From NCBI GenBank assembly GCA_030583765.1, contig CP129474.1, forward strand, positions 331,921 through 395,920: a stretch of DNA of 64,000 bases, given 5' to 3'. The notes below the pieces were generated by a model. The model worked only from the letters and a program-made list of their open reading frames with translations. It was not told the DNA's origin and ran no database searches. This document shows, piece by piece, positions 46,090-46,262 of this stretch; position 1 is the stretch's first letter; the number at the start of each line of letters is the position of its first letter. This DNA is from Minisyncoccota bacterium (GTDB lineage: Bacteria > Patescibacteriota > Minisyncoccia > 2-02-FULL-40-12 > GWA2-44-9). The position numbers and the translations under genes are program-made.

Positions 46090-46262
46090 AAGAACCGCTG
46101 AAACCTGTAGGCAAGTCCACTTCCTAAGAGGATGTGGGGCAGGATAATTCCGAGGAGCAGCCCAGTCGGGACCAAGCTGTCCGAGCTAAGAGAGTATCCC
46201 AGATTGAGCTGGAGTGTGGAAAGCCACGGGAGCCCAATTGCCTACAGATTTCAGCGGTTCTG
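46090..46262 (+). ncRNA. Candidate structured ncRNA or MITE: 173-nt element closed by a 22-bp inverted repeat
   Basis: gaaccgctgaaacctgtaggcaa ... ttgcctacagatttcagcggttc (one mismatch). Internal hairpins. Motif GAGGAGCAGCC resembles SRP RNA domain IV (GGAAGCAGCC). Lies in the pilB-ruvB intergenic region. Confidence 0.35.

What the first reader, a model, noticed from the sequence alone, without database searches (positions are those of the whole stretch)
46090..46262. 173-nt element with 22-bp terminal inverted repeats between pilB and ruvB: structured ncRNA (SRP-RNA-like motif) or MITE
gaaccgctgaaacctgtaggcaa and its reverse complement ttgcctacagatttcagcggttc close a segment that contains at least two internal hairpins (ccacttcct-aag-aggatgtgg, ggac-caagct-gtcc). 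The motif GAGGAGCAGCC-CAG with CAGGA upstream resembles the conserved CAGG...GGAAGCAGCC of SRP RNA helix 8. The overall shape, a long closing stem plus internal loops, also fits 6S RNA. A TIR-bounded miniature transposable element is the non-RNA alternative. No ffs gene was seen elsewhere in the window.
Basis: seen in the sequence. Interest (0 to 1): 0.5.

Follow-up and report, generated by a model that had tools for sequence, protein, structure and literature searches.

The report
New structured small RNA gene, Paceibacteria
The inverted-repeat element is real, but it is not an SRP or 6S RNA or a mobile element: it is a previously uncatalogued, strongly folded small RNA gene, read from the opposite strand with its own consensus promoter, that sits between pilB and ruvB in about 150 genomes and metagenome contigs of the Paceibacteria (candidate phyla radiation).

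Summary
In detail: a 24-bp inverted repeat (46091-46114 / 46238-46261, one mismatch) closes a highly structured segment.

Rfam 15 gives no SRP, 6S or other match, here or in four diverse homologs. MITE is rejected: there is one copy per locus, at the same syntenic site in 46 species genomes and about 100 metagenome contigs.

The functional strand is the minus strand, opposite to pilB and ruvB.
- Conserved G.U pairs exist only on that strand.
- RNAalifold gives -58 kcal/mol for minus against -39 for plus.
- A near-consensus sigma-70 promoter (TTGACA-16/17-TATAAT/TAAAAT) lies upstream on that strand in 39 of 47 homologs. On the other side the best score is 9 of 12.

The fold has a long closing stem P1, an optional hairpin P2, an irregular P3-P3a-P4 arm with a UNCG loop and conserved tandem G.U pairs, and hairpin P5. 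That is a four-way junction, or three-way where P2 is missing. Of 60 pairs, 51 show double changes and 94% of cells are paired.

The promoter's -35 hexamer lies inside the first codons of ruvB.

My best reading is a stand-alone, probably abundant, trans-acting structured RNA whose conserved arm binds a protein. Its function is unknown. It is a new RNA family of moderate to high interest.

The parts
46329..46334 (-). -35 hexamer TTGACA of the RNA's promoter. It lies inside ruvB codons 2-4 (ATG GAT GTC AAG).
   Evidence: One search finds a 12/12 match (TTGACA-16-TATAAT). A homologous promoter scores 11-12 of 12 in 39/47 homologs, against at most 9 on the opposite side. The overlap with the ruvB start is seen in 30/47 homologs.
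46307..46312 (-). -10 hexamer TATAAT. The inferred transcription start is near 46300. It overlaps a plus-strand TATACT that could serve ruvB as the other face of a bidirectional promoter.
   Evidence: The geometry of bidirectional promoters is taken from PMC12825309. The start site and the ruvB use are inferred, not shown.
46268..46295 (-). Leader hairpin P0 (UCCCGCAAAGGUUCGGGA) followed by UUUUUAUUUU. It looks like an intrinsic terminator, and its role is unresolved.
   Evidence: One search lists it as a terminator-like site. A GC hairpin is present in the leader of 28/47 homologs, often with a U-run, and 19/47 have essentially no leader.
46238..46261 (-). P1, 5' strand (AGAACCGCUGAAAUCUGUAGGCAA).
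   Evidence: All 24 pairs show double changes across the family. The inner 10 bp are invariant within the Yanofskybacteria-like group.
46204..46237 (-). P2 hairpin: a 7-bp stem UUGGGCU/AGCUCAA with a variable top. Some lineages lack it.
   Evidence: All 7 pairs show double changes.
46141..46200 (-). The conserved irregular arm. It contains P3 (GGGAUA/UAUCCU), an internal loop, P3a (UCU/GGA), a UAG-containing loop, and P4 (GGACAGCUUGGU/ACUGGGCUG-C-UCC). P4 has a tetraloop and the tandem wobble pairs U.G, U.G, G.U.
   Evidence: The conserved G.U pairs would be C.A mismatches on the plus strand.
46117..46137 (-). P5 hairpin (CCACAUCC-UCUUA-GGAAGUGG).
   Evidence: One search shows the hairpin forms in all 22 sequences with different stem sequences. 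One search shows 8/8 pairs with double changes.
46091..46114 (-). P1, 3' strand (UUGCCUACAGGUUUCAGCGGUUCU).
46081..46090 (-). U-run (UUUAUUUUAU) directly after P1. It is the probable 3' end of the RNA and overlaps the pilB stop codon (46083-46085 on the plus strand).
   Evidence: One search finds a run of >= 4 U after P1 in 16/47 homologs on the minus strand against 3/47 on the plus strand. Some homologs add a separate terminator hairpin.
44307..46085 (+). pilB-like type IV pilus / T2SSE ATPase gene, convergent with the RNA gene (context).
46324..47325 (+). ruvB, divergent from the RNA gene (context).

Best explanation
This is the gene for a discrete structured small RNA of about 180-220 nt, encoded on the minus strand.

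How it is made. Transcription starts from a consensus sigma-70 promoter (-35 at 46334-46329, -10 at 46312-46307, start near 46300) that is interlocked with the ruvB start codon. It runs through an optional leader hairpin and the folded body, and ends at the U-run after the closing stem P1, next to the pilB stop codon.

How it folds. The RNA forms a four-way junction:
- P1, at least 24 bp.
- P2.
- The irregular P3-P3a-P4 arm.
- P5.

What is shown: the fold, the strand, the promoter and the wide conservation.

What is inferred:
- The RNA is abundant and acts in trans as a protein-binding RNA.
- Its conserved irregular arm (internal loops, tandem G.U pairs) and the inner P1 form the recognition surface.
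- The long, freely covarying outer P1 serves as a terminator and/or an RNase III-type processing and stabilising stem.
- Because its promoter shares the -10 region with ruvB and covers the ruvB start, RNA polymerase bound for RNA synthesis probably competes with ruvB initiation.

I put about 0.9 on 'independent structured RNA gene on the minus strand' and about 0.4 on 'trans-acting protein-binding RNA'. The partner and the biological role are unknown.
For: Homologs and synteny.
- The element sits at the same site with compensatory changes in relatives whose RuvB is 95% and 72% identical.
- nhmmer and a covariance model find it between pilB and ruvB in 46 species genomes spanning Yanofsky-, Giovannoni-, Sung-, Harrison-, Staskawicz-, Colwell- and Spechtbacteria.
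- It is in 100 of 100 tested metagenome contigs recovered by a DNA pattern that does not depend on ruvB.

Structure.
- 93.6% of cells are paired and 51/60 pairs have double changes.
- 0 of 500 shuffles reach the observed values, and slid controls reach at most 51% paired.
- The result is reproduced on the independent metagenome set.

Strand.
- The RNAalifold energy is -58.0 kcal/mol for minus against -38.9 for plus.
- Within the minus structure there are 169 G.U pairs against 27 A.C.
- Some wobble pairs are conserved and alternate only with C-G.

Transcription signals.
- The promoter scores 11-12/12 in 39/47 homologs on the RNA strand, against at most 9 on the other side.
- U-runs after P1 are enriched on the minus strand.

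Independence from the neighbours.
- L137 keeps the RNA and a perfect promoter with a hicAB module in place of ruvB.
- L066 keeps the RNA with a NYN-domain gene in place of pilB.

No downstream gene lies on the RNA strand, so it is not a leader.
Against: - There are no expression data of any kind. The transcript ends are inferred from sequence signals.
- A terminator-like hairpin between promoter and body in about half of the homologs, including this one, is odd for a constitutively made RNA.
- No partner protein has been identified.
- The almost invariant position between pilB and ruvB could mean a local (cis or antisense) role rather than a trans role.
- A near-perfect stem of at least 22 bp is unusual for stable protein-binding RNAs.
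Confidence: 0.6

Rival explanations
1. The element is a local regulator or insulator of the pilB-ruvB region. The RNA gene sits antisense inside a pilB-to-ruvB readthrough path. Its strong convergent promoter and the P1/P0 hairpins would block or terminate readthrough. The RNA would pair perfectly with any readthrough transcript, allowing RNase III cleavage. Its promoter would compete with the ruvB promoter. On this view the RNA product itself has no trans target.
For: - The position between pilB and ruvB is almost invariant.
- The ruvB start codon overlaps or abuts the -35 hexamer in 30/47 homologs, through two different codon solutions.
- The -10 elements overlap on both strands, as in bidirectional promoters where one binding event excludes the other.
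- Terminator-like hairpins flank the body.
Against: - An antisense or insulator role needs no particular fold. Yet junction, internal loops, conserved G.U pairs and hairpins P2/P5 are maintained by covariation on one strand only.
- The RNA and its promoter persist when ruvB (L137) or pilB (L066) is replaced.
- L087 has pilB next to ruvB with only a short gap and no RNA.
Confidence: 0.2
2. It is a divergent 6S-type RNA: a regulator that binds RNA polymerase holoenzyme. 6S-like RNAs have not been described for this group, and the two long helical arms P1 and P3-P4 would flank a modified centre.
For: - It is a stand-alone RNA of about 150-220 nt whose ends pair in a long closing stem, with a second long irregular arm and a very strong promoter.
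- Text searches found nothing linking 6S RNA to the candidate phyla radiation.
Against: - There is no Rfam 6S match even at E <= 10.
- The centre is a tight 3/4-way junction with stable covarying hairpins and linkers of 0-7 nt, not an open bubble of 10-15 nt per side.
- Sequence conservation is much higher than is typical for 6S.
Confidence: 0.08
3. It is a cis-acting leader of ruvB, or a 3' UTR element of pilB, on the plus strand, for example a riboswitch or attenuator.
For: It lies directly upstream of ruvB in the same place in all genomes, and the plus strand also folds well.
Against: - The conserved wobble pairs would be C.A mismatches on the plus strand, and the plus-strand consensus fold is weaker.
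- The conserved promoter points the other way, and the side upstream for a plus-strand RNA has no promoter above 9/12.
- No riboswitch family matches.
Confidence: 0.04
4. It is a miniature inverted-repeat transposable element (MITE) or another mobile DNA element bounded by terminal inverted repeats.
For: It has a 24-bp near-perfect inverted repeat at its ends and is about 170 bp long.
Against: - There is one copy in 64 kb and one per homologous locus.
- It has the same syntenic site in about 150 genomes and contigs with RuvB identity down to about 52%.
- The arms covary to keep pairing, including G.U, rather than keeping a sequence.
- There is no target-site duplication.
Confidence: 0.01
5. 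It is an SRP RNA (ffs).
For: The plus strand carries CAGGA...GAGGAGCAGCC, which resembles the helix 8 motif.
Against: - There is no match to any SRP model at E <= 10 on either strand, here or in four homologs.
- The motif is not conserved and is on the non-RNA strand.
- No GNRA-capped helix with the symmetric and asymmetric loops is present.
Confidence: 0.01

Closest known systems
Orphan structured bacterial ncRNAs found by comparative genomics (for example the raiA motif RNA, and larger ones such as OLE, GOLLD and ROOL)
   Same: It is a stand-alone gene with its own promoter and terminator. It has a complex multi-helix fold supported by covariation and highly conserved nucleotides in loops and junctions. 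It is restricted to one lineage and its function is unknown.
   Different: It has no sequence or structure match to any of them in Rfam 15. It has a different host group (Paceibacteria/CPR). It is much smaller than OLE, GOLLD or ROOL. It has an unusually long, near-perfect closing stem and a fixed genomic position.
6S RNA (SsrS)
   Same: The size is similar, the 5' and 3' ends pair in a long closing stem, there is a second long irregular helix, and it is a strongly promoted stand-alone gene.
   Different: There is no central open bubble. The centre is instead a 3- or 4-way junction with side hairpins. There is no Rfam match and sequence conservation is high.
Bacterial Y RNA / YrlA (partners of the Ro60-like protein Rsr)
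   Same: The ends pair in a long stem that carries a conserved segment, with a multi-helix module on top. This resemblance is recalled from memory.
   Different: No tRNA-like T-arm or D-arm is seen, and there is no Rfam Y_RNA hit. Presence of an Rsr gene was not tested.
SRP RNA (4.5S / ffs)
   Same: It is a small stable RNA with a short string resemblance on the plus strand.
   Different: The strand is wrong, the motif is not conserved, there is no helix 8 architecture and no model match.
MITEs
   Same: It is short and bounded by an inverted repeat.
   Different: It is single-copy and syntenic across a class, the arms covary as RNA pairs, and there is no target-site duplication.

Membership tests
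SRP RNA (Bacteria_small_SRP / large SRP) | Matches the Rfam covariance models | tested here: not met
   There is no hit at the gathering score in the window. There is no SRP hit at E <= 10 in 45950-46400 on either strand, and none at the element in four homolog loci.
SRP RNA (Bacteria_small_SRP / large SRP) | Conserved helix 8 motif (GNRA-capped helix with symmetric and asymmetric loops, ...GGAAGCAGCC...) | tested here: not met
   The look-alike string varies among homologs (GGAGTAGCC, GGAGTAATCC, GGAATAGCC). It lies on the plus strand, whereas pairing and G.U evidence put the RNA on the minus strand.
6S RNA | Matches the Rfam 6S models | tested here: not met
   Searches give no hit.
6S RNA | Rod-like fold with a large, mostly single-stranded central bubble between two long stems | tested here: not met
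   The consensus is a tight 4-way junction, or 3-way in short variants. Its side hairpins P2 and P5 covary and its linkers are short.
6S RNA | Binds sigma-70 holoenzyme and templates product RNA | not testable with these tools
   This needs biochemistry.
MITE / TIR-bounded mobile element | Multiple dispersed copies in a genome | tested here: not met
   There is one copy in the 64-kb window and one per locus in 46 genome loci of up to about 17 kb each. Whole genomes were not scanned.
MITE / TIR-bounded mobile element | Target-site duplication flanking the inverted repeats | tested here: not met
   The flanks ...ATAAA|GAACC and GGTTC|TGATAC share no direct repeat abutting the arms.
MITE / TIR-bounded mobile element | Presence/absence polymorphism rather than orthologous conservation | tested here: not met
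   It occupies the same site between pilB and ruvB in 46 species genomes and 101 of 116 metagenome loci. The rest are chance matches, orientation artefacts or short flanks.
Riboswitch / cis-regulatory mRNA leader | Lies upstream of, and on the same strand as, the regulated gene | tested here: not met
   The RNA strand is minus. The next feature downstream on that strand is the 3' end of the convergent pilB.
Stand-alone bacterial small RNA gene | Own promoter on the RNA strand | tested here: met
   The window has a 12/12 sigma-70 match. 39/47 homologs score 11-12/12, against at most 9 for the control side. It is a sequence signal only.
Stand-alone bacterial small RNA gene | Terminator or defined 3' end | tested here: inconclusive
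   P1 is followed by a U-run in the window, and 16/47 homologs have a run of >= 4 U. Some have an extra terminator hairpin and others have no clear signal.
Stand-alone bacterial small RNA gene | Detected transcript | not testable with these tools
   No expression data are available here.
Structured RNA (general) | Base pairs supported by compensatory changes beyond controls | tested here: met
   See (0 of 500 shuffles reach the observed values; slid controls are far lower).

The most novel reading that the evidence does not exclude
The RNA is a four-way-junction decoy for the Holliday-junction machinery. It would be expressed from a promoter physically interlocked with ruvB (with ruvC next door), mimic a four-way DNA junction and titrate or guide RuvA, RuvB or RuvC, much as 6S RNA mimics an open promoter.

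Evidence not excluding it: the four-way junction fold, the fixed linkage to ruvB and the shared promoter region.

Evidence against:
- Several lineages lack P2 and form only a three-way junction.
- L137 keeps the RNA without an adjacent ruvB.
- RNA junctions are A-form.
Probability: 0.04. Interest if true: 0.9.

Novelty: new variant of a known kind. Interest (0 to 1): 0.62.

Why it matters
Almost nothing is known about non-coding RNAs of the candidate phyla radiation. These are tiny-genome, mostly uncultured bacteria that make up a large share of bacterial diversity.

An RNA kept across a whole class, in genomes that discard almost everything dispensable, is likely to do something important there. 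It has a consensus promoter and a fold preserved by dozens of compensatory changes. It is also absent from the reference catalogue of RNA families.

It gives three things:
- A concrete, alignable family that can be added to Rfam.
- A marker for annotating these genomes.
- A defined target for metatranscriptomics and pull-down experiments to find its partner.

The interlocking of its promoter with the ruvB start codon is also a neat natural case of a shared bidirectional promoter region.

Tried and rejected
- **Rfam.** I ran gathering mode on the whole window and permissive mode on the element and on four diverse homolog loci. Nothing matched at the element.
- **SRP, 6S, MITE, plus-strand leader.** All were rejected as described above.
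- **Viral collection scan with the P1 core pattern.** It returned two contigs of one phage (L091/L092). They carry an unrelated long inverted repeat between a primase-like and a ParB-like gene. The model scores are equal and low on both strands. I judge this a chance match of a 10-nt palindromic core.
- **Metagenome pattern matches without a model hit.** L104, L112, L138, L143, L147, L187 and L207 had no model hit. L100 and L171 gave only low, strand-symmetric scores. These are chance matches.
- **Search for extra tertiary pairs by mutual information.** One candidate pair of columns (114/184 of A6) looked like lineage co-variation and alignment register rather than a contact, so I dropped it.
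- **Literature searches** for CPR/Patescibacteria ncRNAs, 6S or ruvB-linked RNAs found nothing relevant.
- **Stop-free stretch check.** It was not informative in either direction. Coding is instead disfavoured by 1-nt indels and by the pairing pattern.

Full report
**What is in the sequence.** The window carries a pilB-like ATPase gene (44307-46085, plus) and ruvB (46324-47325, plus), with 238 nt between them. In that gap the arms 46091-46114 and 46238-46261 form a 24-nt inverted repeat with one mismatch. The arm sequence occurs nowhere else in the 64 kb, and none is expected by chance. Either strand folds about 7.5 to 7.9 standard deviations better than shuffled sequence.

**Known families.** Rfam 15 finds only a tmRNA and tRNAs in the window. 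A permissive scan of 45950-46400 (E <= 10) gives one meaningless lncRNA match. A permissive scan of four diverse homolog loci gives nothing at the element.

**Organism and homologs.** The RuvB protein is from a Candidatus Paceibacterota genome of the candidate phyla radiation.
- Contigs encoding the identical RuvB carry essentially the same intergenic sequence: five are identical and one differs by a single gap.
- Relatives with 95% and 72% identical RuvB keep the element at the same place, with compensatory changes in the closing stem.
- A scan of species-representative genomes with RuvB gave 80 loci. nhmmer and then a covariance model (R1) found the element immediately upstream of ruvB in 46 of them. 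These span Yanofsky-, Giovannoni-, Sung-, Harrison-, Staskawicz-, Colwell- and Spechtbacteria, with RuvB identity down to about 52%.
- Weaker versions are present in two more loci when filters are switched off.
- It was not found next to ruvB in Falkow-, Uhr- or Doudnabacteria, or outside the radiation. Those loci also lack pilB beside ruvB.

**An unbiased look at context.** A metagenome scan used a DNA pattern taken from the closing stem, so it did not depend on ruvB. It returned 120 loci.
- 101 of the 116 with enough flank have a divergent ruvB start within 400 nt, and most have a convergent pilB.
- The exceptions are chance palindromes without a model hit, orientation artefacts of my script, or short flanks.
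- All 100 loci then tested are family members.
- In all 46 genome loci the order is pilB, then the RNA on the opposite strand, then ruvB. The pilB stop is usually within about 90 nt of the RNA's 3' end.

Three informative exceptions exist.
- L137 keeps the RNA and a perfect promoter, but a hicAB toxin-antitoxin pair replaces ruvB.
- L066 keeps the RNA and ruvB, but a NYN-domain gene replaces pilB, and L057 has an extra ORF between pilB and the RNA.
- L087 has pilB next to ruvB with a gap too short for the RNA.

So the RNA is a separable gene whose position is mostly inherited.

**Which strand.** Four lines of evidence point to the minus strand.
- On the plus strand the consensus fold is weak: -38.9 kcal/mol and 39 pairs. 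On the minus strand it is -58.0 kcal/mol and 52 pairs.
- Within the minus-strand structure there are 169 G.U pairs against 27 A.C.
- Several positions are conserved wobble pairs or alternate only between U.G and C.G: G.U 32/33, U.G 19 with C-G 11, U.G 24 with C-G 7, and G.U 30/33. On the plus strand these would be C.A mismatches.
- The mismatch in the window's own 'TIR' is a U.G pair on the minus strand.

**The fold.** On the minus strand the fold has five elements:
- P1: at least 24 bp. The inner 10 bp, CUGUAGGCAA/UUGCCUACAG, are invariant in the Yanofskybacteria-like group but covary in more distant groups.
- P2: a hairpin that several lineages lack.
- P3, P3a and P4: an irregular arm with two internal loops, a UNCG-type loop and a conserved run of three wobble pairs.
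- P5: a hairpin.

Together these form a four-way junction, or a three-way junction in the 147-155-nt variants.

On 33 diverse sequences, 93.6% of cells pair and 51 of 60 pairs show changes on both sides. None of 500 column shuffles reaches any observed measure, and sliding the partners drops pairing to 51% or less. The 86 distinct metagenome sequences, none of which was used to build the model, give the same picture. That alignment was fitted to the model, which favours the structure somewhat. The MAFFT-only alignment already showed 29 pairs with double changes.

**Transcription signals.**
- In the window a perfect TTGACA-16-TATAAT lies on the minus strand at 46334-46307.
- The same promoter (TTGACA-17-TAAAAT or TATAAT) is present upstream of the RNA in nearly all homologs, including distant ones.
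- The best score is 11-12 of 12 in 39 of 47 homologs. The region that would be upstream for a plus-strand RNA never exceeds 9.
- After P1, U-runs are commoner on the minus strand: 16 against 3 of 47 with at least four U. Some homologs add a classical terminator.
- The distance from the -10 hexamer to P1 ranges from 3 to 95 nt. In 19 of 47 homologs transcription must start essentially at the base of P1.
- 28 of 47 homologs, including the window, have a GC-rich hairpin in the leader, often followed by a U-run (window 46295-46268). I could not explain why a terminator-like hairpin sits there. It may be an attenuator, a protective 5' hairpin or a readthrough block.

**Link to ruvB.** In 30 of 47 homologs the ruvB start codon overlaps or abuts the -35 hexamer. 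There are two codon solutions: ATG-AAT-GTC-AA (M-N-V-K; the window has ATG-GAT-GTC-AAG) and c-ATG-TCA-A (M-S).

The plus strand often has a -10-like hexamer offset by one to three bases from the RNA's -10 hexamer. This geometry is described for bacterial bidirectional promoters, where one polymerase binding event excludes the other (PMC12825309). ruvB would then have a leader of at most about 10 nt and no Shine-Dalgarno sequence. This is inference from sequence and no start sites are known.

**What it most likely is and does.**
- Shown: a new, widely conserved, independently promoted structured RNA gene on the minus strand.
- Inferred: it is made in quantity and acts as a folded RNA, most likely a protein-binding one.

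The inference rests on three points. Selection preserves a specific three-dimensional scaffold on one strand. No gene lies downstream on that strand. The RNA survives loss of either neighbour.

The outer P1 carries no sequence constraint and is long enough to be a terminator stem and an RNase III substrate. The inner P1 and the P3-P4 arm carry the sequence constraint.

The main rival is a purely local role: insulation or antisense control of pilB-to-ruvB readthrough plus promoter competition. This fits the fixed position and the interlocked promoter, but it does not explain the conserved fold. A divergent 6S-type RNA is possible but lacks the defining open bubble. The plus-strand leader, MITE and SRP readings are effectively excluded.

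**Novelty.** No family in Rfam 15 matches, and text searches found no description of it. The kind of thing is familiar: a stand-alone structured bacterial ncRNA of unknown function. The family is new, and it belongs to a group of organisms for which almost no ncRNAs are known.

Noticed in passing
window 46324-46334 and homologs: The ruvB start codon is embedded in, or abuts, the -35 hexamer of the divergent RNA promoter in 30/47 genomes. Two different codon arrangements achieve this (M-N/D-V-K and M-S). Together with overlapping -10-like hexamers on both strands, this suggests a shared bidirectional promoter and a nearly leaderless ruvB mRNA.
   Followed up: partly
window 46268-46295 (minus strand); leaders of L009, L012, L016, L024, L039, L045, L059, L069, L077, L088: A GC hairpin plus U-run that looks like an intrinsic terminator lies between the RNA's promoter and its body in many lineages. 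The sequences are unrelated in distant lineages. Its purpose is unexplained.
   Followed up: partly
window 31465-31538: A tRNA-Ile with anticodon UAU is predicted. This is an uncommon way for bacteria to read AUA, which is usually read by a lysidine-modified CAU tRNA.
   Followed up: no
window 39238-39268 and 39399-39429: The 3' end of tRNA-Arg (39194-39266) is repeated at 87% identity about 160 nt downstream, just before tRNA-Lys. It looks like the scar or att-site duplication of an element that once integrated into the tRNA gene.
   Followed up: no
window 11097-11139 and 11822-11864: Two 95%-identical copies of a 43-nt hairpin followed by a T-run (CCCCCGCTCGTCACACCAGACGAACGGGGG...TTT) lie 725 nt apart. 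This is a repeated terminator-like element.
   Followed up: no
window 47992-48117: A 63-nt unit is repeated in tandem and encodes an Asp/Glu-rich low-complexity stretch in a small ORF just downstream of ruvC.
   Followed up: no
L091 8922-9104 (also L092): A phage contig carries a long inverted repeat (about 30-bp arms) with the same 10-nt core CTGTAGGCAA, between a large primase/helicase-like gene and a ParB-like gene. It is probably a chance match and possibly a phage origin or partition site.
   Followed up: partly
L137 1-860: In one metagenome contig a hicA/hicB toxin-antitoxin pair and a small ORF occupy the place of ruvB next to the RNA, while the RNA keeps a perfect promoter.
   Followed up: partly
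L009 5004-6004: In the relative with 72% RuvB identity, a YebC/TACO1-family gene sits between ruvB and ruvC. It is absent from the window, where ruvB and ruvC overlap.
   Followed up: no
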